A stretch of 64,000 nucleotides of DNA from Clostridiales bacterium (GTDB lineage Bacteria > Bacillota > Clostridia > Oscillospirales > UBA644). The notes under the pieces are model-generated. The model had not been told where the DNA came from, made no database searches, and saw only the letters and a list, made by a program, of their open reading frames with translations. Location of the stretch: NCBI GenBank assembly GCA_016281915.1, contig JAEEJO010000066.1, forward strand, positions 54,845 to 118,844, given 5' to 3'. The translations under genes were made by a program, and so were the position numbers. Of the stretch, positions 43,810-57,150 are shown in pieces (positions within the stretch are counted from its first letter, which is position 1; each line of letters starts with the position of its first letter).

Positions 43810-44943
43810 TCAATCAACCTCAACCCCATCACTTTTGATGACTATCCTTTTCGCATCCCCGTATTTCAGCAGATATTCCTCTTTTACATTTCGGCACTTG
43901 CATCCGTTCTTTTTACGCTTTTCCCTGCAGATCCAGGTCTTGATCTTCTCACCACCTGGGCCGTAAACCGTCCTTCGTGTCATGGGAGCACCGCACTCAC
44001 CACAAAAAATTTTCCCATACAAAAAATGTGGCTGACCACCTCTGTGACCAACTTTTTCTCCGATTTTCTTATTTTCTTCCAGCTTTGCCTGAACTGCATC
44101 CCACACATCCCTGCTCACAATAGCTTCATGATCATTTTCCAGGTAGTTGCTCTCGAACATGATTGAAGTGTCAGGTTTTTTGCTTATGAAATCCTTCGGT
44201 GGCTGCTTTTGGAGCAGCTTATCTCCCTTGTAAGTTTCGTTTTTCAAAATGTAAAGGATACTATATCGGCTGAGAGGAGTGTTGTTTCTAGTCTTCACTC
44301 CAATGTCTGTCAGGGTTCTGATGATCTCTTCCACGGTCTTTCCCTGAAGGAAAAGAGCAAAGATGAGCCGTACTGAATCGGCGTACTGGTTTGCCACTAG
44401 CTTTCCATCAACCGTATCATAGCCGAGAATGCGGTTATTTCCCAGGTTAAACTCGCCGCGTTTAAAGCGTTCCTTATATCCCCAGCGGATGTTCTCGGAA
44501 ATGCTGCGACTCTCGTTCTCCGCAATGGCTGACATTAGGGAAAATATGAAGGAACTGGTCGGATCGTCTGTTCTCAGCCTTTCCTTCTCGAACTCAACCG
44601 TCACATTCCTAGATCTCAGCATGTCCGTGTACTTTTTACACTCCGCGACATTGCGCGAGAATCGGGAAACGCTCTTGCAAAGAATCCGGTCGATCTTGCC
44701 GTTCATCGCCGCCTTGATCATTTTCATGAACCCCGGCCTTTTTTCGGCACGAAGTCCAGACAGGCTATCAGAGTACACACCCTCAAGCTCCCAGTCAGTA
44801 CGAAGGCTGATGAGATTGATATAGACTTCCTGTTGTGTCTCTAGGCTGTTTTCCTGAGTGTCCATCTTGGTACTGACTCGGCAGTACACAGCGACCTTCA
44901 TTTTCTTATTTTCCCGTTTCGCAGGAATTCTTGTTATCTGCAT
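43810..44943 (-). CDS. Large serine recombinase (third of three)
   Basis: 377-aa ORF with SD AAGGAGG 7 nt upstream. Catalytic-Ser motif VAVYCRVST, a recombinase domain and the Zn-ribbon CGECGAPM...CREKRKKNGCKC. Confidence 0.9.
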   Translation of the reverse strand: MQITRIPAKRENKKMKVAVYCRVSTKMDTQENSLETQQEVYINLISLRTDWELEGVYSDSLSGLRAEKRPGFMKMIKAAMNGKIDRILCKSVSRFSRNVAECKKYTDMLRSRNVTVEFEKERLRTDDPTSSFIFSLMSAIAENESRSISENIRWGYKERFKRGEFNLGNNRILGYDTVDGKLVANQYADSVRLIFALFLQGKTVEEIIRTLTDIGVKTRNNTPLSRYSILYILKNETYKGDKLLQKQPPKDFISKKPDTSIMFESNYLENDHEAIVSRDVWDAVQAKLEENKKIGEKVGHRGGQPHFLYGKIFCGECGAPMTRRTVYGPGGEKIKTWICREKRKKNGCKCRNVKEEYLLKYGDAKRIVIKSDGVEVD

Positions 44944-44955
44944 GAGTGTCCTCCT

Positions 44956-46335
44956 TTATCCTGCGTGAGCCGAGCTTAGTGCCAGTCCCATCAGGAATTT
45001 GTATTTGTTCTTCTTTACGCCGCATCTAATCCGATCCAGATAGTCGTTGTAGAAAACAGAATAGCGGGATGGGCAGTAGCGTTCTTCGGAGAAATCCAAT
45101 TGCGAGACTTTCGTATCTCCGTCACACCAATGAATTGTCACCTGTTCTTCGTTTAACAGAATTGTCTCCATCGTGTCATCCAGCCAGTAAAATTCGACCG
45201 TTTCCTTTTTCTCGCCATATTTTTCTTCATAGGCTTTGACCATCGCCTCATCCAGCACATTCTGAATGATCAAATAACCCCCACATCCGCCTTCTCCATA
45301 GCACCCCCAGCCGCCGTTCTGGATCCTCTCGCCGTTGTAGTAAAAATTGTTCAGGCTCCCGTGCACCAGCGGCTTCCCGCAATGCGGGCATTTAAGCATT
45401 TCACCGTAAGGATAAGTGCTGTTTCCAACCGCCACATTTCGCATCGCCATGATCTTCTGCGCCTGATCAAAAATGTGACGATCAACTATGGCTTCGTGTG
45501 CATTCTTGACATGGAACTTCGGAAGGGCTCCGTGGTTGCGGATCTGCCTGTGGGTGAGGTGGTTTTCAATGTATGTTTTCTGCATGACCACATCCCCAGC
45601 ATACTTCTCATTTTTGATCATCCGATCAATCTGCAGCCTTTTCCAGCATTTTCCAGCTGGAGGCTTAATGCCCCTTGCGGTCATGTCATTCATGATGTCC
45701 AGCGGAGCTTCCCCGTGCACAAACCGTTCGAAAATTTCCTTAACAACCGCTGCCTCCTCTTTTTGAATGAGGAACATCTCATCATCAGAATGGTAGAAGC
45801 CATAAAGGGGAACCTTAACCTCGTTCCCGGCTTCAAACCTTTTCCGGATGCCCCATTTCACGTTCTCGGAAATACTCCGGCTCTCCTCCTGCGCGAAGGA
45901 TGCCATGATGGTCAGAACCATCTCTGAAAGGGCGTCCGCGGTATCGATTCCTTCTTTTTCAAAAAAGACCTGAACACCGTAACTTTGCAGTTCACGTACC
46001 GTAGAAAGTGTGTCAACCGTATTTCTGGCAAATCTGCTGATGCTCTTGGTGACGATGTAGTCGATTTCTCCGGCTTTGCAGTCCTCGATCATCTGCTGGA
46101 ACTGAACCCTGCCCTTCACCGAAGTCCCGCTTAGCCCCTCATCAACGTACACATTTTTAAGATCCCAATCCCCGCGCTGCGCTGCCCGGAACCGGAAGGT
46201 CTCTATCTGGTTTTCTAAGCTTTCTAGCTGCGCCTCATGGTTTGTGCTCACACGGCAATAGGCGGCAACACGCTTTCTGCTGGCATACTTCGGCTCTTCA
46301 ATTCTCGTTACTGTTTTCGACAAAGCGTTCTCCAT
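44956..46335 (-). CDS. Large serine recombinase (second of three)
   Basis: 459-aa ORF. VAAYCRVST and the Zn-ribbon CPHCGKPL...GCYGEGGCGG. Overlaps the upstream recombinase by 38 nt. Confidence 0.9.
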   Translation of the reverse strand: MENALSKTVTRIEEPKYASRKRVAAYCRVSTNHEAQLESLENQIETFRFRAAQRGDWDLKNVYVDEGLSGTSVKGRVQFQQMIEDCKAGEIDYIVTKSISRFARNTVDTLSTVRELQSYGVQVFFEKEGIDTADALSEMVLTIMASFAQEESRSISENVKWGIRKRFEAGNEVKVPLYGFYHSDDEMFLIQKEEAAVVKEIFERFVHGEAPLDIMNDMTARGIKPPAGKCWKRLQIDRMIKNEKYAGDVVMQKTYIENHLTHRQIRNHGALPKFHVKNAHEAIVDRHIFDQAQKIMAMRNVAVGNSTYPYGEMLKCPHCGKPLVHGSLNNFYYNGERIQNGGWGCYGEGGCGGYLIIQNVLDEAMVKAYEEKYGEKKETVEFYWLDDTMETILLNEEQVTIHWCDGDTKVSQLDFSEERYCPSRYSVFYNDYLDRIRCGVKKNKYKFLMGLALSSAHAG

Positions 46336-47212
46336 CTCTCAATAAAGTCTGATTCGTTACTCGGGGCTGTTTGCGGGAAGCAAGTAGGTATCGGTTCATA
46401 ATCTCCTGCACCCTGTCAAAAAGCTCAGGGCTGACAATTGGCTCATGATGCTCTGTGATGTAAAACTGATCCCGGTAGCCGTTGTTCTTCACTTGCTTTC
46501 CAGGAACCAGGGATATGGTTTTGTGAGATTGATAATCACCCTTGTAGACAACATTTGTAAGCAAGTACTTTAGCCGCCTATGGCTCCATGTAAAGCCACT
46601 CATCTCATTCAGCGTTCTCTGGATATCCGTGTAGTTTTTTCCTTCCGCCGCCATTTTGAAAGCCTTGATGACCAGAGGTGCTTCTTCCCCGTTGATAACC
46701 CATTTATTGTCTCCTCCGTTTTTGTAACCGAAAGAAATCTGGCCGAAAGGGTTGCCCTCCATCGCGTGCTGTTCATGCGCCAGAAGTGTATGCTGACTGA
46801 TACTATGGCTTTCTTCTTCCGCAATGGCAGCAAAAATGTTCAAAACAAAAGCGCATTTCTCATTTTGAGAATTGATATTCTCTTTTTCAAAAATGATGTT
46901 CACCCCAAGATCTTTCAGCTCCCGGATCATTGCAGCACACTCTGCCATGTTGCGAGAAAAACGGGAAATTGACTTTGTGAGGATCAGATCGATCTTTCCA
47001 GCTCTACAGTCATCAATGAGCTTTTGCAGGCCAGGGCGTTTCTCTGTGCTCCAGCCGCTCTTGCCCTTGTCGCCGTAGATGCCCACGAGTTCCATTGTTG
47101 TGTTGGCTTTTATCATGTCTTTATAGTAGCTTACCTGGAGCTCGTAGGAACCATCTTGTGCTTCTTTATCCGTACTGACCCTGCAGTAAGCTGCAGTCTT
47201 TATTTTTTTCAT
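46298..47212 (-). CDS. Serine recombinase (first of three, short, no Zn-ribbon)
   Basis: 304-aa ORF with SD AAAGGAGA. TAAYCRVST, with resolvase and recombinase domains only. Confidence 0.88.
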   Translation of the reverse strand: MKKIKTAAYCRVSTDKEAQDGSYELQVSYYKDMIKANTTMELVGIYGDKGKSGWSTEKRPGLQKLIDDCRAGKIDLILTKSISRFSRNMAECAAMIRELKDLGVNIIFEKENINSQNEKCAFVLNIFAAIAEEESHSISQHTLLAHEQHAMEGNPFGQISFGYKNGGDNKWVINGEEAPLVIKAFKMAAEGKNYTDIQRTLNEMSGFTWSHRRLKYLLTNVVYKGDYQSHKTISLVPGKQVKNNGYRDQFYITEHHEPIVSPELFDRVQEIMNRYLLASRKQPRVTNQTLLRDGERFVENSNEN

Positions 47213-47305
47213 TTTTGTCTCCTTTCCGGTGTTTTCCGCGGTTTTTCCTCTCTCGAGGTAGAGTATTAATCACTCTAAAAGCTAATAATATCAAGTCGTT
47301 CATGC

Positions 47306-47518
47306 CTATATTTCCGGATATAACAGGTAGAATTTTTCGCATGCATTCCGCGTGATTTTGTTGAATTCGTCAACAGTAATTCTGCCGTCGTAGCAGAGCC
47401 TGTTCGCAAACCGAATAACGGACAGATATTCATACTCCCACCGCAGCCTTTTCGTGGGTAATTGACTCTGCGGTATTACCGAGCATGTCGTTTGCACACT
47501 TTGTGATACAGTTTTCAT
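47306..47518 (-). CDS. Small hypothetical protein upstream of the recombinases (start/frame uncertain)
   Basis: 70-aa ORF. Only the C-terminal half (EYEYLSVIRFANRLCYDGRITVDEFNKITRNACEKFY) looks protein-like. The good SD (GGAGG) serves an ATG at 47525-47527 in another frame. Confidence 0.35.
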   Translation of the reverse strand: MKTVSQSVQTTCSVIPQSQLPTKRLRWEYEYLSVIRFANRLCYDGRITVDEFNKITRNACEKFYLLYPEI

Positions 47519-47605: not shown

Positions 47606-47651
47606 AAAATTAAAAAAAATTACCCGCCATGGATTTTTAGTCCGTGACGGG
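47606..47651 (-). terminator. Rho-independent terminator of the cargo operon
   Basis: On the minus strand: CCCGTCA...TGGCGGG hairpin (47623-29 / 47645-51, 1 mismatch), followed by TAATTTTTTTTAATTTTTT. Confidence 0.6.
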
Positions 47652-47806
47652 CGTTTTACTGATTGATTTAAAATGATTTATGTATTCGAAATACTCACAA
47701 CTCCTTTCGTGGTTCTGCAAAGATATCAGTGCGCTTGGTTGGCTCAGAGGGCAGCTGGTTCAAGTACTGCCGCTATGAACACCTGCTTGTTCAGTTGTTT
47801 TTCTTT

Positions 47807-48019
47807 TCATACCTTATCCTGCAGCGCAGTGATCTGTTTCTGCAATTCTTGTCTGCGAGGATTACGTTTCACAGACTCTTTCAGTGATTTCGCGCTGCCC
47901 GCATGCAATGCATCTCCAGAAATCTGCCTCACTAAGTTTTTATATGCGGTATGCTTATTTAAATTGAAATCGATTCTAGTGCTTTCTCCTTCGCCCTCGC
48001 ACTCAGATATTTCAACCAT
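47807..48019 (-). CDS. Hypothetical 70-aa ORF overlapping the end of the previous gene (possibly its frameshifted continuation)
   Basis: Overlaps 47959..48402 by 61 nt in another frame. The distal part (RIDFNLNKHTAYKNLVRQISGD...QELQKQITALQDKV) looks helical. Confidence 0.25.
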   Translation of the reverse strand: MVEISECEGEGESTRIDFNLNKHTAYKNLVRQISGDALHAGSAKSLKESVKRNPRRQELQKQITALQDKV

Positions 48020-48402
48020 TCATCATACTGGTATTTGGAAATAGCATGGCGGGTTAGCAAAACATCTAGCAACTGTTTCTGCTTGATGAAAAGCCGTCTG
48101 TTCTTCTCCTCATATGAAAGTAACTCCCATTCCTCTGTATCAAGATGAACGCTCATGTCTTTTGCTCTTTCCTCTAACTCATATCTACTATCTTTTTTCG
48201 AAGACTTTCCTGTTCCAAACAATAATGGGAACAAATTAAAGGAGGTCTTGTTGTAGGCAGCCTTTTTGGGGTTCTTAATCCATCCCGCACCTTTCTTGCC
48301 ATAGCCGGGTATGAATGCCGCCTTAATTTTTCTTTTCAACCTGCTTGTTGTCCGTGCTTTGAAAGACCTTTTCAGACTTGGTTTTCTTGCTCCAAATTTC
48401 AT
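47959..48402 (-). CDS. Small basic protein with SHOCT-like C-terminal helix pair
   Basis: 147-aa ORF with SD AAGGAT. Lys/Arg-rich N-terminus (KPSLKRSFKARTTSRLKRKIKAAFIPGYGKKGAGWIKNPKKAAYNK). C-terminal LLDVLLTRHAISKYQYDEWLKYL resembles SHOCT. From memory only. Confidence 0.55.
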   Translation of the reverse strand: MKFGARKPSLKRSFKARTTSRLKRKIKAAFIPGYGKKGAGWIKNPKKAAYNKTSFNLFPLLFGTGKSSKKDSRYELEERAKDMSVHLDTEEWELLSYEEKNRRLFIKQKQLLDVLLTRHAISKYQYDEWLKYLSARAKEKALESISI

Positions 48403-48413
48403 ATACCATATCC

Positions 48414-49208
48414 TTATTTTTTAAGTCCGTCGGTTGATTTATTGTCTGTCTCGCTACTTTCCTCGATTCCGTGATCATTTTTGTTTAATTCATCCAAAAA
48501 TCCCGCGGTTATAATGCCTGATGGCAATGCTATGATGGCGATTCCAAAAACAGATGAAATCATAGTTATTATTCTCCCCATTACCGTTACCGGATAAATA
48601 TCTCCATATCCAACTGTTGTCAGTGAAACTGTTGCCCAATACACGGCATCAAAGAAGTTGTTGAATGATTCCGGCTCGACATTGAAAACTACTAATGCCG
48701 ATATGAAAACATAGACTATTGCCAACAGCCCAACAGTCATCAATGGCCTGCGCTGCCTAACGAAAACCCCTTTAATCATTTTGATACTTTTTGAGTAGCG
48801 AACTGCTTTGAATATACGAAACACACGAAACGTTCGAAAAAGGCGAAACACTTTCAGGATTCTGAAACCACTGTTAATTATGCTTAATGATGGTAGTATG
48901 CATAACAGATCAATAATTGCCATTGGTGTAATAGGATAAATCAAAAATGACCATTTACCCTTTTTTAGTTTCATATCTGCTGTTAAAAGCCTTAGGACAT
49001 AGTCTATGATAAAAATCACGACCGCTATCTTGTCTATACATTCAAATACCAACCACTCATTTTTGAAAGCAAGTGGAATCAAACTAACAACGATTACCGA
49101 CATCATAAAGAAATCATAAGCGTTGCTTAATCTGTCTTTCTCTGAAGCAGGTTCAATAATCTGAAATAGTCGTTTTCTCATTCTTTTCCCTTCACTGTCC
49201 TGAAACAT
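48414..49208 (-). CDS. Voltage-gated-type (6TM) potassium channel
   Basis: 264-aa ORF. The S4 segment has a basic residue every third position (RILKVFRLFRTFRVFRIFKAVRY). Selectivity filter: SLTTVGYGDIYP. ATG 49208 abuts the upstream stop (TAAATG). An alternative ATG at 49181 has GAAGGGA upstream. Confidence 0.88.
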   Translation of the reverse strand: MFQDSEGKRMRKRLFQIIEPASEKDRLSNAYDFFMMSVIVVSLIPLAFKNEWLVFECIDKIAVVIFIIDYVLRLLTADMKLKKGKWSFLIYPITPMAIIDLLCILPSLSIINSGFRILKVFRLFRTFRVFRIFKAVRYSKSIKMIKGVFVRQRRPLMTVGLLAIVYVFISALVVFNVEPESFNNFFDAVYWATVSLTTVGYGDIYPVTVMGRIITMISSVFGIAIIALPSGIITAGFLDELNKNDHGIEESSETDNKSTDGLKK

Positions 49209-51083
49209 TTATGGCTTGCAGTTTCCGCAAGGAGAATAACCTCTATTCATTAGCTCATCCCTGGTTTCATTTGTGACGTCGTAATTCTCCGGTTTGATCT
49301 TTGATACACTGTGACAATCTGGATAATGGAATTTTTTGGTATTGGTGTTAAGAACATAAGTATAAGACTTACCATCTGATGAAGAGTCTGGCGATTGATC
49401 TTTCGTTATCTGTGATGAAGAAGAATTATCAAAGACTATAAAAGTATCTGCATTCGCGTTCTTGGCAACTGTAAATGATACTTTCTTTCCGTCGCTTTCA
49501 CATGTAACGTCGCCCTGAATATCAGTGCGAAATACTGTGACATCAGCGTCCCTTAAGCGACTCAGTGTATCATCTGTAGGATGTCCATAGCTGTTGTTAC
49601 TGCCAACTGATATTACAGCGTATTTGGGCATAATTGCCCTTAAGAACGGATAGCTTGTTGCGTTTTCGCCGCCGTGATGTCCAACCTTTAGAACATCTGC
49701 ACTAAGTTCGGACTCATATTTACTAAGAATAGCCCCCTCCGCTTCTCTGTTTGCATCTCCTGTAAACAAGAAAGATGTCTGACCGTAGACTATTTTTAAT
49801 ACAATTGAGGAGTTATTCGCATCGTTTAAGCTGTTAACTCCAAGTATTTTTATAGAGGCGCTTCCAAGTGTATATGTGTCTCCTGGCTTTGGAACGCTAA
49901 TTCCGCCATTTTTATCTGCGTATTTCTTGAAATCCCTAAATGCATCACTGTCATATGATGTAGACGGACAGAGAATGAGATTTGCGTTCGTATAATTCAG
50001 CGCGCCGGGGAGACCGCCGATATGGTCAGCATGAGGGTGTGAGGCAACCATTATGTCAATCACAGGGACATTCAGGCGTTTCAGAATCGAGTACATCTTG
50101 TCCGAATCGCCTTTATTGCCGCCGTCAATGATCATATAGTGTCCATCACATTGAACAATCGCAGCATCGCCCTGCCCGACATCAATAAACCTAACCCAGA
50201 AAGTTGAAGGTTCATTGTTTTTTGCAGCTGCCTCCGCAGCAGCCTTAGCCTCTGCTTCTGCTTTTGCCTTGGCTTCCGCTTCTGCCTTTGCTCTGGCCTC
50301 TGCCTCTGCTTTTGCCTTGGCTTCGGCCTCTGCTTTTGCTTTAGACTCTGCTTCTGCCTTTGCCTTTGCTTCCGCTTCTGCCTTTGCTTTGGCCTCTGCC
50401 TCTGCTTTCGCTTTGGCCTCTGCCTCTGCCTCAGCCTTCGCTTTAGCCTCTGCCTCTGCTTTCGCTTTGGCCTCTGCCTCCGCTTTTGCCTTGGCTTCGG
50501 CCTCTGTTTTTGCCTTGGCTTCGGCCTCTGCTTTTGCTTTAGCTTCTGCTTCCGCTTTCGCCTCTGCCTCAGCTTTTGCTTTCGCCTCTGCCTCAGCCTT
50601 CGCTTTAGCCTCTGCTTCTGCTTTCGCTTTCGCCTCTGCCTCAGCCTTCGCCTTTGCTTCTTCATCGGCCTTTATTCGAGCCTCTTCTTCAGCTTTTATG
50701 CGGTCTTCTTCTTCAGCTTTCGCCTTTGCTTTTTCTTCGGTTTTTAAGCGTTCCTCTTCTTCAGCGTTGCTGTTTGTATCTTCATCAGACTGATAATCAG
50801 AAATGTCTTTCGTAGAGTTGAGAGTATCTGTAGTTTCCTCTACAACAAAATCTTTTGATAAAGATATATCCTCATTTTCAGGATTTTTAGTAATAGAACC
50901 GATTATTGAGGTCGCAATAAAAAACAAGAATACCCCGGCAAGAACAACAGGCCATATCTTCTGCTTTTTAGCCTTTACTTGTACCGGATTTTGATAACGT
51001 GGTTGATTTTGCTGTTGACCACAATTGGGACAGAATTTGACATTATCATTAATTAGTGCTCCGCATTTAGTACAAAAAGCCAT
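49209..51083 (-). CDS. Membrane-anchored ComEC-type metallo-beta-lactamase-fold protein with N-terminal Zn-ribbon, long charged helical stalk and C-terminal Ada-like Zn-finger
   Basis: The ORF extends to 51119. ATG 51083 (MAFCTKCG...CPNCG) has AAGGTGG 7 nt upstream. TM helix: IWPVVLAGVFLFFIATSIIGSI. About 180 aa of E/A/K repeats. MBL motifs FIDVGQGDA...SHPHADHIGG...KVGHHG. C-terminal FHYPDCHSV...CGNC. Confidence 0.85.
   Translation of the reverse strand: MAFCTKCGALINDNVKFCPNCGQQQNQPRYQNPVQVKAKKQKIWPVVLAGVFLFFIATSIIGSITKNPENEDISLSKDFVVEETTDTLNSTKDISDYQSDEDTNSNAEEEERLKTEEKAKAKAEEEDRIKAEEEARIKADEEAKAKAEAEAKAKAEAEAKAKAEAEAKAKAEAEAKAEAEAKAKAEAEAKAKTEAEAKAKAEAEAKAKAEAEAKAKAEAEAEAKAKAEAEAKAKAEAEAKAKAEAESKAKAEAEAKAKAEAEARAKAEAEAKAKAEAEAKAAAEAAAKNNEPSTFWVRFIDVGQGDAAIVQCDGHYMIIDGGNKGDSDKMYSILKRLNVPVIDIMVASHPHADHIGGLPGALNYTNANLILCPSTSYDSDAFRDFKKYADKNGGISVPKPGDTYTLGSASIKILGVNSLNDANNSSIVLKIVYGQTSFLFTGDANREAEGAILSKYESELSADVLKVGHHGGENATSYPFLRAIMPKYAVISVGSNNSYGHPTDDTLSRLRDADVTVFRTDIQGDVTCESDGKKVSFTVAKNANADTFIVFDNSSSSQITKDQSPDSSSDGKSYTYVLNTNTKKFHYPDCHSVSKIKPENYDVTNETRDELMNRGYSPCGNCKP
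50224..50765. repeat. In-frame degenerate tandem repeat encoding (EAKAKA)n
   Basis: A 12/24-nt periodic gcctctgcttctgcttttgccttggc... tract. It produces mirror ORFs on both strands (50215..50793 +, 50132..50665 -). Confidence 0.85.
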
Positions 51084-51166
51084 ATTGGTCCACCTTTTTA
51101 ATTTGAAAATGATATTCAAAAAGGAAATTTATCTATCTTTACTTTAATATCATAAAATACTAATTA

Positions 51167-51195
51167 AGTATAACAAAAAAGCAATAAAATGTCAA
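51167..51195 (-). promoter_or_regulatory. Promoter of the cargo operon
   Basis: On the minus strand: TTGACA (51190-95), 17 nt, TATACT (51167-72). Confidence 0.55.
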
Positions 51196-51291
51196 GTATT
51201 CGCCATAAAATGATTTTTCCCACAATGGAGCCATTTTCCACAAGTACAAGTAAGATTTTTCTTACTTGACAAAATTTTTATGTTTTCCCTA

Positions 51292-51320
51292 TTGACAAAT
51301 CACTAATCGTGATGTATAAT
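51292..51320 (+). promoter_or_regulatory. Rightward (early) promoter of the phage-like element, with operator-like inverted repeats
   Basis: TTGACA (51292-97), 17 nt, TATAAT (51315-20). ATCAC-N5-GTGAT lies in the spacer (51299-51313). GTGATGTA (51309-16) is repeated inverted as TACATCAC (51350-57). Confidence 0.55.
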
Positions 51321-51385
51321 GCACTCATAGATTCACGTTAAGCGATAAATACATCACAATGCGATCAATGCTGGAGGTGACAAAA

Positions 51386-51592
51386 ATGGAAAAAGAAAGA
51401 GACCGTATAAGGAGAAGCAGTATTACGGAAACGCGTGATCTGATTGTTACCCAGGACTACAACGGGTATATTTCGGTAACGGAGAAGATGACTGGAGCTA
51501 CTATTGTACAGATGCCGTATCTGCAGCTTCTGACAAAAGAACAGCTTGATTTCATAGCGTCTGACTGTCAGTACAGCTATGCAACTGCATAA
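51386..51592 (+). CDS. Hypothetical small early protein
   Basis: The ORF begins at 51359. ATG 51386 has GGAGGTG 7 nt upstream. 68 aa, no recognisable domain. Confidence 0.5.
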   Translation: MEKERDRIRRSSITETRDLIVTQDYNGYISVTEKMTGATIVQMPYLQLLTKEQLDFIASDCQYSYATA

Positions 51593-51624
51593 CGGGAAAG
51601 GGAGAATACAAGGGGACATGGCAT

Positions 51625-51828
51625 TTGAAAAAAGATGAGTGGAAATCTTTCATGTGGCATTGCTTCAACTGCGGCAACATAGTTGTCGGATATATGAACG
51701 GAAAAGGAGAGATTTGCGGAGAGTGTACAAGGTGCGGAACATGCATGGTTCGTGTAATTAAAAGTAAAACACATGACACCGTCAATGTTTATGCGCCGCC
51801 GGGAAGCACCCGGTATGAAGACAACTGA
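51625..51828 (+). CDS. Small Zn-ribbon protein
   Basis: TTG start in the ORF track (first in-frame ATG at 51652). CFNCGN...CGECTRCGTC forms two CxxC pairs. Confidence 0.45.
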   Translation: MKKDEWKSFMWHCFNCGNIVVGYMNGKGEICGECTRCGTCMVRVIKSKTHDTVNVYAPPGSTRYEDN

Positions 51829-51838
51829 ATACAGGTAT

Positions 51839-51958
51839 AACGACGGTTCGGGCAGAGTAATTCGTAAGACCCGATCCAGGTCACATATCGAACCTGTCTT
51901 AAAAGATATGCGGGAACGACGGTTCGGGCAGATTTATTCGTAAGACCCGTTCCAGGTC
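51839..51958 (+). repeat. Two 44-nt direct repeats (41/44 identical, 76-nt period), each able to form a hairpin
   Basis: aacgacggttcgggcaga(gta/ttt)attcgtaagacccg(a/t)tccaggtc at 51839-51882 and 51915-51958. In copy 1, GGTTCGGG pairs with CCCGATCC with 1 mismatch (U-U). In copy 2, CCCGTTCC gives 2 mismatches. Confidence 0.8.
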
Positions 51959-51980
51959 CCCCCGGTATCGCGGCAATACG

Positions 51981-52041
51981 CCGGTAAGGCAGATCTTCGG
52001 AAGAGACAATCTTCCGTTGGTCTGTCTTGCCGGTTTTTTTT
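51981..52041 (+). terminator. Very strong rho-independent terminator
   Basis: A 15-bp outer stem (51981-95 / 52019-33, 3 G-U pairs) plus a 7-bp inner stem (CGGAAGA/TCTTCCG), followed by 8 T. Confidence 0.8.
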
Positions 52042-52282
52042 GTTATCACAGCACATATAGGTCTTTCCAAACCGATAAAAAAAATACAATCTCACAGTCC
52101 GAGATGGCCATAAGGACGATGGGACGCATATAAGGCAGCGATACCGCAAAGGTATCAAATGCGAAGATGCACCCACCGTTGTTTTGCTGCGCCGTTTTCC
52201 GGACAGACAACGCCTGCGGTCATTTTCACTGCAGGCTTCATTTGTGTCCCACCGCCCCTGCCCGGACGGAAAGGAACACAAT

Positions 52283-52783
52283 ATGAAAAACCGCGACAAA
52301 AAGTACTTTATCCCGGTAAACGGGACACTCGTTGAAGTAAGCGAGGAAGTTTACAGGGCATACTACAGGCCTGTCTGGGTCACACGATACCATGCGCAAA
52401 AAACCGGCGAGTGCCGCTGCAGCAAACGACAGCTTTGGCTGTGTGACGGGATCTGCTCAGGCTGCCCGTTTCATACATCCAAAACAAACATCTCCTTTGA
52501 AACGCCCGTTGCAGACGGAGACGAAGATATCACCATCGAAGATGCTCTTCAGGACGACTCCCCCTCTCCGGAATCCATCCTTATGGACAAGGAACTGCTC
52601 GACACCCTGTATGACGAACTTAACCGTCTTGACCCCGAGGGCAGGCGAATCTGCGAGCTTATCATGCAGGGAAAGACCGAGCGCGAGATCGCCGCGGAAA
52701 CAGGCAAATGTCAGTCGACGGTAAACTACAGAAAAAACAAGGTCTTTGCAGTCCTTCGCAGAGCATTGAAAGACTTTATCTGA
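52283..52783 (+). CDS. Sigma-70 region-4-type HTH protein (sigma-factor-like regulator) with Cys-rich N-terminal part
   Basis: The ORF begins at 52184. ATG 52283 follows GGAAAGGAAC. C-terminal LDPEGRRICELIMQGKTEREIAAETGKCQSTVNYRKNKVFAVLRRAL. Cys cluster: CRCSKRQLWLCDGICSGC. Confidence 0.7.
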   Translation: MKNRDKKYFIPVNGTLVEVSEEVYRAYYRPVWVTRYHAQKTGECRCSKRQLWLCDGICSGCPFHTSKTNISFETPVADGDEDITIEDALQDDSPSPESILMDKELLDTLYDELNRLDPEGRRICELIMQGKTEREIAAETGKCQSTVNYRKNKVFAVLRRALKDFI

Positions 52784-52892
52784 TTTTTTCCGCTTAAAAA
52801 AATATTTTTCAATTTTTTTCGTTCAAAACATCTGTGTTCCTCCAGTAGGTAGTGAGAGGGGTATGAATTGCCCCGGAAAGGAGGAAACCAAA

Positions 52893-55152: not shown

Positions 55153-57150
55153 ATGCAAAACAACATACTTGCTGCGCTGAAAGCGTTGGACGTATCCGAG
55201 CTTTCACGCGCAGAGTGGATATCCGTCGGTATGGCGTTAAAAGAGGAAGGTTTTCCCTGCTCCGTATGGGACGACTGGTCTGCGCATGACTCAAGATACC
55301 ATCGCGGCGAGTGCGAATACCTCTGGAAAGGGTTTAAGGGAAATCCCAGGCCTGTTACCGGCGGCACGATAGTTCAGATGGCAAAGGAAAAAGGCTGGAC
55401 GGTCTTTAACGACGACGGCTGCCTTGCCTGGGACGATACTATTGAGTTTGACGGTGTAGAGGATGAGTTTTCGGGATTTACTGACCCTGACGCATGGGAT
55501 CCCGTAAAAGATATATCTACATACATCGAAGTTTTGTTTGAGCCCGGCGATAAAGTCGGCTACGTCACAAACGACGTATGGCAGGACGCCGAAGGCAGAT
55601 GGGTACCGAGCAAAGGCGTCTATGACCGTACTGCCGCGGAGCTTTTAGAATCTCTGAAAAAACATCCCGACGACATAGGAGCGACGTTCGGAGACTGGAA
55701 ACGCGACGTTGGCGCATGGATTCGCTTCAACCCTGTTGACGGCAACGGTGTAAAGAACGAAAACATTACACGCTTTAAATACGCGCTTGTGGAGTCGGAT
55801 ACTTTACCTGTGCCCGAGCAGGACATTCTTTACCGTAAGCTTGAACTGCCCATAGCGGCGCTCGTTCATAGCGGAGGGAAAAGTCTTCACGCGATAGTAA
55901 GGGTCGACGCGAAAGGCTATGACGAATACAGAAAACGCGTAGACTTCCTTTATGACTATATTGAGAAAAACGGTATCTCCATTGACCGTCAGAACAGAAA
56001 CCCGTCCCGTCTGTCACGCATGCCGGGCGTTACGAGAAACGGTTGCAGACAGTATCTTGCGGGCGTTAATCTGGGTAGAAAGTCATGGGTCGACTGGCTC
56101 GACTTTGTCGAAGGCGCGTCAGACGAGCTGCCGGAGATGGAGAGCTTGTCTCAGTACAGAGACAACGCCCCCGCCCTTCCAGAAGAACTGATAGAAGGCG
56201 TGCTTCGCAGAGGGCATAAGATGCTCATTTCAGGCTCGTCAAAGGCGGGAAAGTCGTTTCTTCTTATGGAGCTTTGCATCGCCATCGCGGAAGGGATACA
56301 GTGGCTCGGTTTCAAGTGCCGTAAAGGCAAAGTGCTTTATGTCAATCTTGAGATAGACCCTGCGAGCGCGATCAACAGGTTTCTTAAGATATATGACGCG
56401 CTGGGGATACAAAAGAGAGGAATGGACAACATTGTAGTGTGGAATCTTCGCGGACACGCGGTCCCGCTCGATATGCTCGTTCCTAAGCTTTTACGCAGAG
56501 TGCGCGATCAGAGCTTTGACGCGATAGTGATCGACCCGATATACAAAGTCATAACGGGAGACGAGAACAACGCGTCGGAGATGGGAGCTTTTTGCAACCA
56601 GTTCGACAGGATCTGCTCCGCGACTGGTTGCGCGACGATATACTGCCATCACCACAGCAAAGGAGCTCAGGGCATGAAGAAGGCGATGGACAGAGCGTCC
56701 GGCTCAGGCGTATTTTCCAGAGACCCCGACGCGCAACTGGATATGATACAGCTTGAGCTTTCAGAGACAGTAAAGAACACTGTCCGGGATGGAAACGCCA
56801 CGGCGTGGAGACTGGAGTCATCGCTTCGTGAGTTTCCGAACATCAGGCCCGTCAACTTCTGGTTTGAGTATCCTGTCCACAGAGTAGACACATCAGGGGA
56901 ACTGAAAACAGCGTACGCCGAAGGCAGCCCGATGGCAAATCTGGTCAAAAGCAGCAAATATACGACGCCGGAGGAGCGCAAAATCTCCATAGACACCGCG
57001 TATGATGCCAATTACATGGGCGAGCCCGTTACAATAAAGGATATTGCCGAGTATCTTGGCGTAACGGAACGCTGCGTAAGGGACAGGCTGAAGGAGTTGG
57101 CCGATGAATACTGGACGCACGGCGGCGCAGTTTTAAGGAAAAAGGGATGA
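55153..57150 (+). CDS. Phage primase-helicase (PriCT-2 N-terminus, AEP prim-pol-like core, AAA_25/RepA-like ATPase)
   Basis: 665-aa ORF with SD AAAGGAGA. WISVGMALKEEGFPCSVWDDWS (PriCT-like), HSGGKSLHAIV (AEP-like), Walker A ISGSSKAGKSF. Confidence 0.8.
   Translation: MQNNILAALKALDVSELSRAEWISVGMALKEEGFPCSVWDDWSAHDSRYHRGECEYLWKGFKGNPRPVTGGTIVQMAKEKGWTVFNDDGCLAWDDTIEFDGVEDEFSGFTDPDAWDPVKDISTYIEVLFEPGDKVGYVTNDVWQDAEGRWVPSKGVYDRTAAELLESLKKHPDDIGATFGDWKRDVGAWIRFNPVDGNGVKNENITRFKYALVESDTLPVPEQDILYRKLELPIAALVHSGGKSLHAIVRVDAKGYDEYRKRVDFLYDYIEKNGISIDRQNRNPSRLSRMPGVTRNGCRQYLAGVNLGRKSWVDWLDFVEGASDELPEMESLSQYRDNAPALPEELIEGVLRRGHKMLISGSSKAGKSFLLMELCIAIAEGIQWLGFKCRKGKVLYVNLEIDPASAINRFLKIYDALGIQKRGMDNIVVWNLRGHAVPLDMLVPKLLRRVRDQSFDAIVIDPIYKVITGDENNASEMGAFCNQFDRICSATGCATIYCHHHSKGAQGMKKAMDRASGSGVFSRDPDAQLDMIQLELSETVKNTVRDGNATAWRLESSLREFPNIRPVNFWFEYPVHRVDTSGELKTAYAEGSPMANLVKSSKYTTPEERKISIDTAYDANYMGEPVTIKDIAEYLGVTERCVRDRLKELADEYWTHGGAVLRKKG

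What the first reader, a model, noticed from the sequence alone, without database searches (positions are those of the whole stretch)
47606..51195. Self-contained AT-rich cargo operon: surface-tethered MBL (ComEC-type) protein, voltage-gated K+ channel and SHOCT-like protein. Candidate novel prophage-encoded module.
The operon lies between the recombinase module and the element's early promoter, which is the classical moron/defence hot spot. It has its own promoter (TTGACA-17-TATACT, 51167-95) and terminator (47606-51). Genes are tightly coupled (TAAATG at 49206-11, then an 11-nt gap). It is visibly more AT-rich than its flanks: one sampled 60-nt line at 48,841 has 22 G+C versus 34 at 56,101.

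Products:
- (i) Zn-ribbon, 1 TM, ~180-aa charged helix, HxHxDH MBL domain of the ComEC type, Ada-like Zn-finger. Its topology puts the hydrolase outside the cell.
- (ii) A complete 6TM Kv-type channel with TVGYGD.
- (iii) A basic small protein with a SHOCT-like end.

I know of no described system with this combination. Possible roles are superinfection exclusion or a transformation block by a surface nuclease, and abortive infection by K+ efflux or depolarisation. A function in host physiology is also possible.
Basis: partly seen in the sequence, partly recalled or inferred. Interest (0 to 1): 0.75.

Follow-up and report, generated by a model that had tools for sequence, protein, structure and literature searches.

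The report
Three unrelated prophage cargo genes
The three-gene operon is real, but the three cargo genes (a surface-tethered ComEC-type metallo-hydrolase, a voltage-gated K+ channel and a small basic protein) travel separately in other phages and mobile elements, so this is not a new conserved system.

Summary
On the minus strand, 47,606-51,195 carries a strong sigma-70-type promoter, three tightly packed genes and a hairpin-plus-U8 terminator. It lies between three serine recombinase genes and the early region of a Clostridia-type prophage.

- Gene 1 is a type-II membrane protein: Zn-ribbon, one TM, a ~180-aa EAKA-repeat stalk, a ComEC-type MBL domain and a C-terminal Cys/His module.
- Gene 2 is a complete 6TM Kv-type channel with a TVGYGD filter.
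- Gene 3 is not SHOCT. It fuses a very widespread unnamed basic N-terminal domain to a long helix from a second unnamed family.

The trio occurs only in copies of this same prophage.
- None of 29 phage loci with the MBL family has the channel.
- About 160 surveyed channel loci show no full MBL partner.
- Only 1 of 80 basic-domain loci has a channel.

Instead, the channel is a common Clostridia chromosomal gene. Phages have repeatedly captured it between repressor (34/69) and integrase (29/65). The MBL's closest relatives sit beside integrases of prophages and conjugative elements.

Best reading: a lineage-specific stack of independent morons. A weak, recurrent adjacency of the channel to small bitopic membrane proteins remains an open lead.

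The parts
51167..51195 (-). Operon promoter: TTGACA-17 nt-TATACT with a TG extended -10.
   Evidence: One search gives 11/12 consensus matches. It lies in a 30% GC intergenic region. A CAAGTA motif that recurs in the neighbouring palindrome overlaps its -35.
49209..51083 (-). Gene 1, 624 aa: a membrane-anchored ComEC-type MBL hydrolase. The ORF can extend to a TTG at 51119, but AAAGGTGG-N6-ATG at 51083 is the likely start.
   Evidence: (gene callers give 624 aa).
51018..51077 (-). N-terminal zinc ribbon of gene 1 (aa 3-22), predicted cytoplasmic.
   Evidence: Pfam Zn_Ribbon_1 E 3e-7. The positive-inside rule (KAKKQK before the TM) is an inference from the sequence.
50889..50957 (-). Single transmembrane segment of gene 1 (aa 43-65).
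   Evidence: Hydrophobic stretch IWPVVLAGVFLFFIATSIIGSIT.
50248..50788 (-). Repeat array of 24/48/72-nt units. It encodes a ~180-aa EAKAKAEA charged helical stalk.
   Evidence: TRF finds 16.5 copies of a 24-nt unit. It also gives TolA-like low-complexity hits.
49602..50183 (-). MBL catalytic domain of the ComEC type (DVGQGD, HPHADH, TGD, GHHG and a late His are all present).
   Evidence: Lactamase_B E 3e-16. PDB 9ic4 ComEC MBL E 2e-35. Foldseek top hit 9ic4 at E 2e-20, TM 0.79. The motif residues are invariant in 17 homologues.
49212..49367 (-). C-terminal Cys/His module (YVLNTNTKKFHYPDC...PCGNCKP), Ada-Zn-like and extracytoplasmic.
   Evidence: Ada_Zn_binding E 0.002, below the cut-off. H301/C305/C334/C337 (numbering of the 339-aa query) are invariant. 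pLDDT is about 90. The same module ends signal-peptide and lipoprotein-type proteins in other loci.
48414..49208 (-). Gene 2, 264 aa: a 6TM voltage-gated-type K+ channel. The start is probably M10, at 49181.
   Evidence: Ion_trans E 1e-28 and Ion_trans_2 E 5e-17. Kv7/Kv2/Kv4 structures at E 1e-22. M10 is invariant in homologues.
48798..48866 (-). S4 voltage-sensor helix (FRILKVFRLFRTFRVFRIFKAVR), with R/K at every third residue.
   Evidence: Sequence. The residues are invariant in the alignment.
48600..48617 (-). K+ selectivity filter TVGYGD.
   Evidence: Sequence. T198, G200, Y201, G202 and D203 are invariant; position 199 varies (V here, M in the consensus).
47959..48402 (-). Gene 3, 147 aa: a chimera of a basic N-terminal domain (aa 1-55, nt 48238-48402) and a long helix (aa 73-146, nt 47965-48186).
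   Evidence: The N-terminus matches phrog_10934/29766/3374/4721 at E 1e-23 to 1e-25, 73 phage records and at least 572 viral loci. The C-terminal half belongs to a family of ~60-aa proteins. AF2 predicts one long helix with pLDDT above 85. There is no SHOCT match.
47606..47652 (-). Intrinsic terminator: an 8+3-bp hairpin followed by U8.
   Evidence: -16.5 kcal/mol, z -2.4.

Best explanation
The region is a genuine, autonomously transcribed moron cassette in the cargo slot between the integration genes and the early promoter of a Clostridia-type prophage. It is a lineage-specific stack of three independently mobile cargo genes, each working on its own. It is not a conserved multi-gene system.

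(1) Gene 1 is a type-II membrane protein. A ~27-nm charged helical stalk would hold a ComEC-type binuclear-metal hydrolase and an Ada-like Cys/His module outside the cell wall. Most likely it is an ectonuclease that degrades DNA at the cell surface (transforming DNA, or DNA of competing elements). MGE-borne secreted DNases that block transformation do this. The fold and family are shown; the activity and substrate are inferred.

(2) Gene 2 is a host-type Kv channel that phages have repeatedly captured into the repressor-integrase operon, so it is made in lysogens. I infer that it changes the K+ conductance of the lysogen membrane in response to voltage. Either it acts as a RexB-like exclusion or abortive device, triggered by the depolarisation a superinfecting phage causes, or it supplies K+ homeostasis to the host. 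The sequence cannot separate these two.

(3) Gene 3 joins a very common basic N-terminal domain of integrase-proximal phage proteins to a coiled-coil-like helix. Its role is unknown.
For: The operon is real.

The element is a prophage.
- Sigma-like factor, Gam-like protein, AAA_24, primase, RusA, small terminase.
- Three serine recombinases, then host glycosyltransferases.

The genes travel independently.
- Exact look-up finds the trio only in copies of this prophage.
- 0 of 29 viral MBL loci have a channel within 8 kb.
- 1 of 80 basic-domain loci has a channel.
- 73 phage records carry the basic domain and 14 carry the channel; no accession appears in both listed tables.
- No full MBL lies next to the channel in 160 channel loci.

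The channel is a host gene captured by phages.
- At least 583 genome matches, with housekeeping neighbours.
- In viral contigs the upstream gene is an HTH_3 repressor in 34/69. The downstream gene is a tyrosine or serine recombinase in 29/65. The same layout is seen in Dulem virus 33 and Lactobacillus phage PLE2.

The MBL is cargo of mobile elements.
- Its closest relatives (63-64% identity) lie directly after a recombinase or integrase. One of these is on a conjugative element with MobL/TraG.
- Its viral neighbours are integrases, endolysins, ImmA and repressors.

The MBL is of the ComEC type. ComEC-like MBL domains also match defence effectors: Avs1a, LmuA, DRT-MBL.

There is precedent for MGE DNases that block transformation: IdeA, SxnA, Dns (PMC12378983).

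GC is lower over genes 2-3 and the 3' part of gene 1.
Against: - No expression or activity data exist.
- The tight packing of the three genes under one promoter would also fit a functional unit.
- The channel shows a recurrent minority adjacency to small bitopic proteins. These carry the basic domain (7 independent loci), the C-terminal Cys/His module (about 6) or a multi-Zn-ribbon-2TM domain (about 6). This could reflect a functional pairing that the sample sizes used here cannot exclude.
- Each survey kept at most 80 loci and had no taxon-matched background.
- The second-best structural match of the MBL domain is the pneumococcal phosphorylcholine esterase Pce/CbpE. A non-DNA substrate is therefore possible.
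Confidence: 0.72

Rival explanations
1. One reading: the three genes form one novel prophage defence or exclusion system. The surface nuclease, the K+ channel and the small protein would act together, for example as sensor, effector and regulator.
For: One promoter, one terminator and near-zero intergenic gaps. The position is a classical defence hot spot. MBL domains of this type serve as effectors in known defence systems.
Against: There is no conserved co-occurrence. The trio occurs only in identical copies. 0 of 29 MBL loci carry the channel. Channel loci have no adjacent full MBL. The nearest relatives of each gene sit in unrelated contexts. PADLOC gives no hit for the channel or for gene 3.
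Confidence: 0.06
2. A two-gene module. The Kv channel would work with an adjacent small bitopic membrane protein that has a cytoplasmic basic or zinc-binding N-terminal domain (basic domain, DUF4236, Zn-ribbons). That protein would be an auxiliary or regulatory subunit. In this window, genes 1 and 3 would both be partners of that type.
For: The basic-domain protein lies immediately downstream of the channel in L011, L050, L062, L065, L115 and L284, and adjacent in L164. Multi-Zn-ribbon-2TM proteins are adjacent in L008, L011, L057, L070, L099 and L101, and appear in none of the 109 control loci. Cys/His-module proteins are adjacent in L059, L067, L071, L087 and L111. DUF4236 proteins are neighbours in about 8 loci.
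Against: More than 80% of channel loci have no such neighbour. In most phages the channel is flanked directly by repressor and integrase. Basic-domain proteins occur overwhelmingly without a channel (79/80). The Cys/His module is about as frequent in control loci (2/80) as in viral channel loci (2/80). These protein types are very abundant in Clostridia and share the same cargo slot, so adjacency is expected. The controls are not taxon-matched. Gene 3 here has no TM segment.
Confidence: 0.12
3. Gene 1 is not a nuclease. It would be a surface phosphodiesterase that remodels the cell envelope, acting on teichoic-acid or polysaccharide decorations as pneumococcal Pce/CbpE does. That would change phage receptors and so give superinfection exclusion by receptor modification.
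For: Pce/CbpE is the second-best structural match (Foldseek E 2e-14) and a weak sequence match. The long stalk places the enzyme in or beyond the wall.
Against: The sequence match to ComEC MBL domains is about 30 orders of magnitude better (E 2e-35 against 9e-5). The C-terminal module resembles a DNA-binding Ada zinc domain. There is no choline-binding or wall-binding repeat.
Confidence: 0.12

Closest known systems
Prophage morons / lysogenic-conversion cassettes (independent transcription units between integrase and repressor, e.g. lambda rexAB, lactococcal sie2009, streptococcal ltp)
   Same: It has its own promoter and terminator. It lies in the integrase-proximal slot. Its composition differs in part from the rest of the prophage. 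Its membrane and surface proteins are expected to be made in the lysogen.
   Different: The genes are not homologous to any characterised Sie or Rex protein. No cI-type repressor gene sits at the divergent promoter; the MBL gene occupies that place.
Phage-borne Kv-type 'ion transporter' genes (phrog_7872; Lactobacillus phage PLE2 gp27, Dulem virus 33 XCD07631)
   Same: Same family: phrog_7872 E 1e-42, and 61% identity to the Dulem virus 33 protein. The position is also the same, in the lysogeny module on the repressor/integrase strand.
   Different: Here the upstream gene is an MBL hydrolase rather than a repressor. The nearest relatives (77-84% identity) are chromosomal, not phage copies. I found no tested function for any phage copy; one survey lists yugO-like channels as enriched in gut phages of spore-formers (PMC10294663).
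ComEC C-terminal MBL nuclease domain, and standalone phage/MGE copies (phrog_14556; Geobacillus phage GBSV1 'late competence protein'; Clostridium phage c-st MBL protein)
   Same: All metal-binding motifs are present. The best sequence and structure matches are to ComEC MBL domains. phrog_14556 matches at E 7e-83 and includes the C-terminal module.
   Different: It has no competence channel domain and no OB-fold domain. It is anchored by a Zn-ribbon plus one TM, and it carries an unusually long repeat stalk.
MGE-encoded secreted DNases that inhibit natural transformation (IdeA/SxnA of Vibrio ICEs, Dns of Campylobacter CJIE1)
   Same: A mobile element carries an extracytoplasmic nuclease-type enzyme beside its integration genes. 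The expected effect is on incoming DNA (PMC12378983).
   Different: The enzyme fold is unrelated (MBL against endonuclease I/NS type). No activity or transformation phenotype has been tested.
Lambda RexB
   Same: A membrane ion-conducting protein encoded in the lysogeny operon of a temperate phage. This is an analogy of position and of expected effect on membrane potential.
   Different: There is no homology and no RexA-like partner. The channel is K+-selective and has its own voltage sensor. The comparison rests on my own knowledge of RexAB and was not tested here.

Membership tests
Voltage-gated K+ channel (6TM, Ion_trans PF00520) | Six TM segments with an S4 that carries R/K at every third position | tested here: met
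   Ion_trans E 1e-28 over residues 30-237. The alignment to Kv7.5 covers residues 9-241. The S4 sequence is FRILKVFRLFRTFRVFRIFKAVR.
Voltage-gated K+ channel (6TM, Ion_trans PF00520) | K+ selectivity filter T-[VI]-G-[YF]-G-D | tested here: met
   TVGYGD at residues 198-203. T198, G200, Y201, G202 and D203 are invariant in 17 homologues; position 199 varies (V here, M in the consensus).
Voltage-gated K+ channel (6TM, Ion_trans PF00520) | Voltage-dependent K+ conductance, and its polarity | not testable with these tools
   This needs electrophysiology or flux assays. NCBIfam models for MVP and Kch match only far below their cut-offs.
ComEC-type MBL nuclease domain | Binuclear metal site motifs (D-x-G-x-G-D, HxHxDH, TGD, GHHG, late His) | tested here: met
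   DVGQGD, HPHADH, TGD and GHHG are present and invariant in the family alignment.
ComEC-type MBL nuclease domain | Closest sequence and structure relatives are ComEC MBL domains | tested here: met
   9ic4 E 2e-35 and full-length ComEC structures at E 1e-33 to 1e-29. Foldseek rank 1 is 9ic4, TM 0.79. TIGR00361 matches positions 439-663 at E 3e-34.
ComEC/Rec2 competence protein (TIGR00361 equivalog) | Competence channel domain plus N-terminal OB-fold domain; score above the curated cut-off | tested here: not met
   118 bits against a cut-off of 190. Only the C-terminal MBL part aligns, and the protein has one TM.
SHOCT domain (PF09851 / PF20612) | Profile match of the C-terminal segment of gene 3 | tested here: not met
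   No SHOCT family hit at E <= 5 for gene 3 or for six relatives of its C-terminal half. AF2 predicts one continuous 74-residue helix. The neighbouring 70-aa ORF at 47306-47518 gives a weak SHOCT_2 hit (E 0.016), but gene 3 does not.
Known anti-phage defence systems (PADLOC-DB v2) | Hits of the component proteins to the proteins of one system | tested here: not met
   Only generic MBL-domain matches for gene 1 (DRT-MBL, LmuA, Avs1a, PDC-M48B). Genes 2 and 3 give nothing.
Conserved multi-gene system (operon-level family) | Co-occurrence of the component genes in diverged, unrelated genomes | tested here: not met
   The trio occurs only in identical prophage copies. 0 of 29 MBL loci carry the channel. 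1 of 80 basic-domain loci carries the channel. 160 channel loci show no adjacent full MBL.
Moron (independent transcription unit in a prophage) | Own promoter and terminator, located between functional modules, deviant base composition | tested here: met
   Promoter 11/12. Terminator. Position between the recombinases and the early operon. GC is 36-41% against 44-52% over part of the unit. Transcription itself was not tested.

The most novel reading that the evidence does not exclude
The Kv channel may not be a lone gene. It could be the core of a flexible two-component membrane module. Its partner would be an adjacent bitopic protein with a small cytoplasmic basic or zinc-binding head (the unnamed basic domain, DUF4236 or Zn-ribbons) and a variable ectodomain. 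In this window both flanking genes would be partners of that kind. An ectodomain such as the nuclease would sense events at the surface and gate K+ flux, giving a new kind of phage- or DNA-triggered electrical exclusion system.
Probability: 0.08. Interest if true: 0.75.

Novelty: new member of a known kind. Interest (0 to 1): 0.3.

Why it matters
As a three-gene system it does not hold up, so it should not be pursued as a new defence system.

The by-products are of moderate interest to phage biologists.
- A Kv-type K+ channel is a recurrent passenger of the repressor-integrase operon of Clostridia and Firmicutes phages. I found no tested function for it. It could be a voltage-triggered counterpart of lambda RexB.
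- Surface-tethered ComEC-type MBL hydrolases are common integrase-adjacent cargo of prophages and conjugative elements in gut Clostridia. They are candidates for blocking incoming DNA.
- A highly conserved ~55-aa basic N-terminal domain is present in at least 572 viral contigs and has no Pfam family.

Tried and rejected
- DNA-level search of the operon against 50,697 phage records found only the channel gene of Dulem virus 33 and low-complexity matches to the repeat stalk.
- PADLOC gave only generic MBL hits.
- Pfam and NCBIfam gave nothing for gene 3. SHOCT is rejected.
- The Anti-Pycsar Apyc1 label on homologues is a weak generic MBL match: 16.7 bits against a cut-off of 50.
- Rfam found no RNA family in 43-53 kb.
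- I asked whether the Cys/His-module proteins are specifically linked to the channel. Their frequency is similar in control loci (2/80) and in viral channel loci (2/80), so this is not convincing.
- Two further basic-domain plus Zn-ribbon proteins (P0221, P0122) were checked for an upstream channel. One is preceded by an HTH gene. The other lies at a contig end next to an unrelated ORF fragment.
- I looked for a cI-type repressor among the ORFs around the divergent promoters. None was recognisable.
- Window recombinase and early proteins were searched against loci carrying the C-terminal family of gene 3. No informative linkage appeared.
- Two literature searches for phage-encoded potassium channels found no functional study of a bacteriophage K+ channel.

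Full report
WHAT IS THERE

On the minus strand the window carries three consecutive ORFs.
- 49209-51119 is the first. Its likely start is the ATG at 51083, behind AAAGGTGG. That gives the 624 aa used by gene callers on identical metagenome contigs.
- 48414-49208 encodes 264 aa.
- 47959-48402 encodes 147 aa.

Upstream lies a near-consensus promoter, TTGACA-17-TATACT with a TG extension, at 51195..51167. It is back to back with a perfect TTGACA-17-TATAAT at 51292-51320 that drives the early genes. Downstream, about 300 nt after the third stop, a hairpin of -16.5 kcal/mol (z -2.4) is followed by eight U.

The first two genes abut (TAA then ATG), and 11 nt separate the second from the third. One caveat applies. 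All 17 aligned channel homologues have a Met at position 10 and their consensus starts there. The channel may therefore start at 49181, behind a GAAGG.

GC is 36-41% across 47,800-49,400 but 45-55% across the repeat part of gene 1. The flanks are 44-52%. The AT-richness is therefore real but partial. No Rfam family is present.

THE ELEMENT

Identical copies on metagenome contigs show the same order of genes. Early and replication genes come first (PriCT_2/AAA_25 primase, AAA_24, Sipho_Gp157). Then come the three genes, three serine recombinases, and finally host glycosyltransferase genes.

PHROG matches identify a sigma-like factor, a Gam-like protein, a primase, RusA, a small terminase and a methyltransferase. 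This is a prophage.

No cI-type HTH gene is recognisable at the divergent promoters. The MBL gene sits where many phages have the repressor.

GENE 1

The domain order is as follows.
- Zn-ribbon: Zn_Ribbon_1 E 3e-7.
- One TM segment. A KAKKQK cluster precedes it and acidic residues follow it, so the protein is N-in, C-out by the positive-inside rule. This is an inference.
- A ~180-aa EAKAKAEA stalk, encoded by 24-nt repeats.
- An MBL domain.
- A C-terminal Cys/His module.

The MBL domain is of the ComEC type.
- TIGR00361 matches positions 439-663 at E 3e-34, far below the full-protein cut-off.
- The crystal structure of a ComEC MBL domain (9ic4) matches at E 2e-35, and full ComEC structures at 1e-33 to 1e-29.
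- The AF2 model (pLDDT 82) has 9ic4 as its top Foldseek hit: E 2e-20, TM 0.79.
- All metal-site motifs are invariant in the family.
- The second-best fold match is the pneumococcal surface phosphorylcholine esterase Pce/CbpE. That keeps a non-DNA substrate possible.

The C-terminal module matches Ada_Zn_binding weakly (E 0.002). Several homologues carry a precomputed hit to it. The same module ends proteins that begin with signal peptides or lipoboxes in other loci. This supports an extracytoplasmic location.

A 180-residue helix would span about 27 nm, enough to cross a Gram-positive wall. This too is an inference.

GENE 2

This is a complete minimal Kv-type channel.
- Ion_trans E 1e-28.
- Alignment to Kv7, Kv2, Kv4 and Kv1 structures over residues 9-241 at E 1e-22.
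- An S4 helix with R/K at every third residue, and the TVGYGD filter.
- No cytoplasmic regulatory domain.

GENE 3

This is not SHOCT. No Pfam or NCBIfam family matches.

Residues 1-55 are a strongly conserved basic domain, MKFGxRKPSLKKSxKARTTGKxKRxxKKAxIPGYGKKGxGWIKNPKKAAYNK.
- It matches four PHROGs at E about 1e-23 to 1e-25.
- It is found in 73 phage records, mostly Streptococcus and Lactococcus. For many listed hits the match lies near one end of the record.
- It is found in at least 572 viral contigs.
- It usually occurs either alone (66-70 aa) or before a TM segment, Zn-ribbons, or a TM2 or HIRAN domain.

Residues ~88-147 belong to a second unnamed family of ~60-aa proteins, (W)xxLSYEEKNRxLFLRQKxxLDxFLERGAISQAQHDKSLHDL. 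It was found in 28 metagenome loci. None of those loci contains a channel, an MBL or the basic domain, and none of the seven sequences tested has a Pfam match.

AF2 predicts this part as one long helix with pLDDT above 85.

IS IT A SYSTEM?

(a) Exact look-up. The trio occurs only in copies of this prophage.

(b) Channel-centred survey of 80 genome and 80 viral loci.
- No locus other than the prophage itself has a full MBL gene adjacent.
- In viral contigs the upstream same-strand neighbour is an HTH_3 repressor in 34 of 69; 10 of these carry Peptidase_S24. The downstream neighbour is a tyrosine (19) or serine (10) recombinase in 29 of 65.
- The annotated phages Dulem virus 33 and Lactobacillus PLE2 have the same layout.
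- In genomes the neighbours are housekeeping genes.
- The nearest relatives (77-84% identity) lie in varied, mostly chromosomal settings. These include a dcw cluster, a position after phosphofructokinase, an R-M island and a position between glycosidases. One lies on a mobilisable element.
- The channel is thus a common Clostridia gene that phages have captured repeatedly.

(c) MBL-centred survey.
- 0 of 29 viral loci have a channel within 8 kb.
- The neighbours are integrases, endolysins, ImmA-type proteases and repressors.
- The closest relatives (63-64% identity) lie directly after a serine recombinase or a tyrosine integrase. One is at the edge of a conjugative element with MobL and a TraG-type coupling protein.

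(d) Basic-domain-centred survey. Only 1 of 80 loci has a channel.

Each gene is therefore an independent, mobile cargo gene. The combination is specific to this lineage.

A RESIDUAL LEAD

The channel's immediate neighbour is, in a minority of loci, a small bitopic protein of one of these types.
- Basic domain: L011, L050, L062, L065/L113, L115 and L284, with L164 on the other strand.
- C-terminal Cys/His module: L059, L067, L071, L087 and L111, with L068 on the other strand.
- A multi-Zn-ribbon-2TM domain: L008, L011, L057, L070, L099 and L101. This type appears in none of the 109 control loci.
- DUF4236.

These protein types are abundant in Clostridia and use the same cargo slot. The Cys/His module is as frequent in control loci as in viral channel loci. 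My controls are not taxon-matched. I treat this as an unproven lead with a probability of about 0.1.

MECHANISM

Shown: the folds, motifs, topology signals, operon signals and genomic distribution.

Inferred:
- Gene 1 is a stalk-displayed ectonuclease acting on DNA at the surface. This is analogous to the MGE-borne DNases IdeA, SxnA and Dns, which block transformation (PMC12378983). It also fits the use of ComEC-like MBL domains as effectors in Avs1a, LmuA and DRT-MBL.
- Gene 2 gives the lysogen an extra voltage-gated K+ conductance. It could act as a RexB-like exclusion or abortive device that opens when a superinfecting phage perturbs the membrane potential. It could equally serve host K+ homeostasis. 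I rate these two as about equally likely, and the sequence cannot decide.
- A survey of gut phages lists yugO-like K+ channels as enriched in phages of spore-formers (PMC10294663). I found no functional study.
- The role of gene 3 is unknown.

VERDICT

The interpretation as a novel three-gene module is not supported. The region is a new member of a known kind, a composite moron cassette, and is of modest interest.

Noticed in passing
window 51185-51275: The intergenic region between the divergent promoters holds a perfect palindrome, CAAGTAAG-ATTTTT-CTTACTTG (about 51248-51269). Further CAAGTA copies lie at 51241 and at 51193-51198, and the last of these overlaps the -35 of the operon promoter. 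This looks like an operator array, so the cargo operon may be under phage repressor or Cro-type control.
   Followed up: partly
window 51100-52800: No cI-type HTH repressor gene is recognisable at the divergent promoter pair. The MBL gene occupies the usual repressor position. The first early ORFs (77 aa and a 67-aa Cys-rich protein) have no family. They are followed by a sigma-70 region-4-like protein (52184-52783, phrog_13787 E 1e-53).
   Followed up: partly
window 43810-47518: Three tandem large serine recombinase genes (377, 459 and 304 aa) form the integration module. The 304-aa copy shows no Zn_ribbon_recom match, and only the 377-aa copy has one. They are preceded by a 70-aa ORF (47306-47518) with a weak SHOCT_2 match (E 0.016) and a phrog_2996 match (E 1e-4).
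   Followed up: no
window 48238-48402; loci L206-L285: A ~55-aa basic N-terminal domain (MKFGxRKPSLKKSxKARTTGKxKR...IPGYGKKGxGWIKNPKKAAYNK) is 65-80% identical across Streptococcus, Lactococcus and Clostridia phages. It occurs in at least 572 viral contigs, often as a 66-70-aa protein of its own. It has no Pfam family and its function is unknown.
   Followed up: partly
window 47652-47958: About 300 nt lie between the stop of gene 3 and the terminator. This stretch holds a 70-aa ORF (47807-48019) that overlaps the end of gene 3 and is conserved only in copies of this prophage. It has no family match, and it is unclear whether it is coding.
   Followed up: partly
window 51839-51958: Two direct copies of a 44-nt sequence, 93% identical and 76 nt apart, lie in the early region (AACGACGGTTCGGGCAGAGTAATTCGTAAGACCCGATCCAGGTC).
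   Followed up: no
L059, L067, L071, L087, L111 (next to channel genes); window 49212-49367: A ~50-aa extracytoplasmic Cys/His module (YVLNTNTxKFHxPxCxSV...GYxxCGxCxP) ends many otherwise unrelated secreted or membrane-anchored proteins in Clostridia mobile elements. These include MBL hydrolases and DUF4236-headed proteins. It may be an extracellular DNA- or ligand-binding module.
   Followed up: partly
L297-L324 (metagenome loci): The C-terminal half of gene 3 belongs to an unnamed family of ~60-aa proteins (LSYEEKNRxLFLRQKKTLDMFLERGAISQAQHDKSLHDL). In L297 the member lies in a chromosomal setting, next to a membrane protein with a classical SHOCT-like C-terminal motif.
   Followed up: partly
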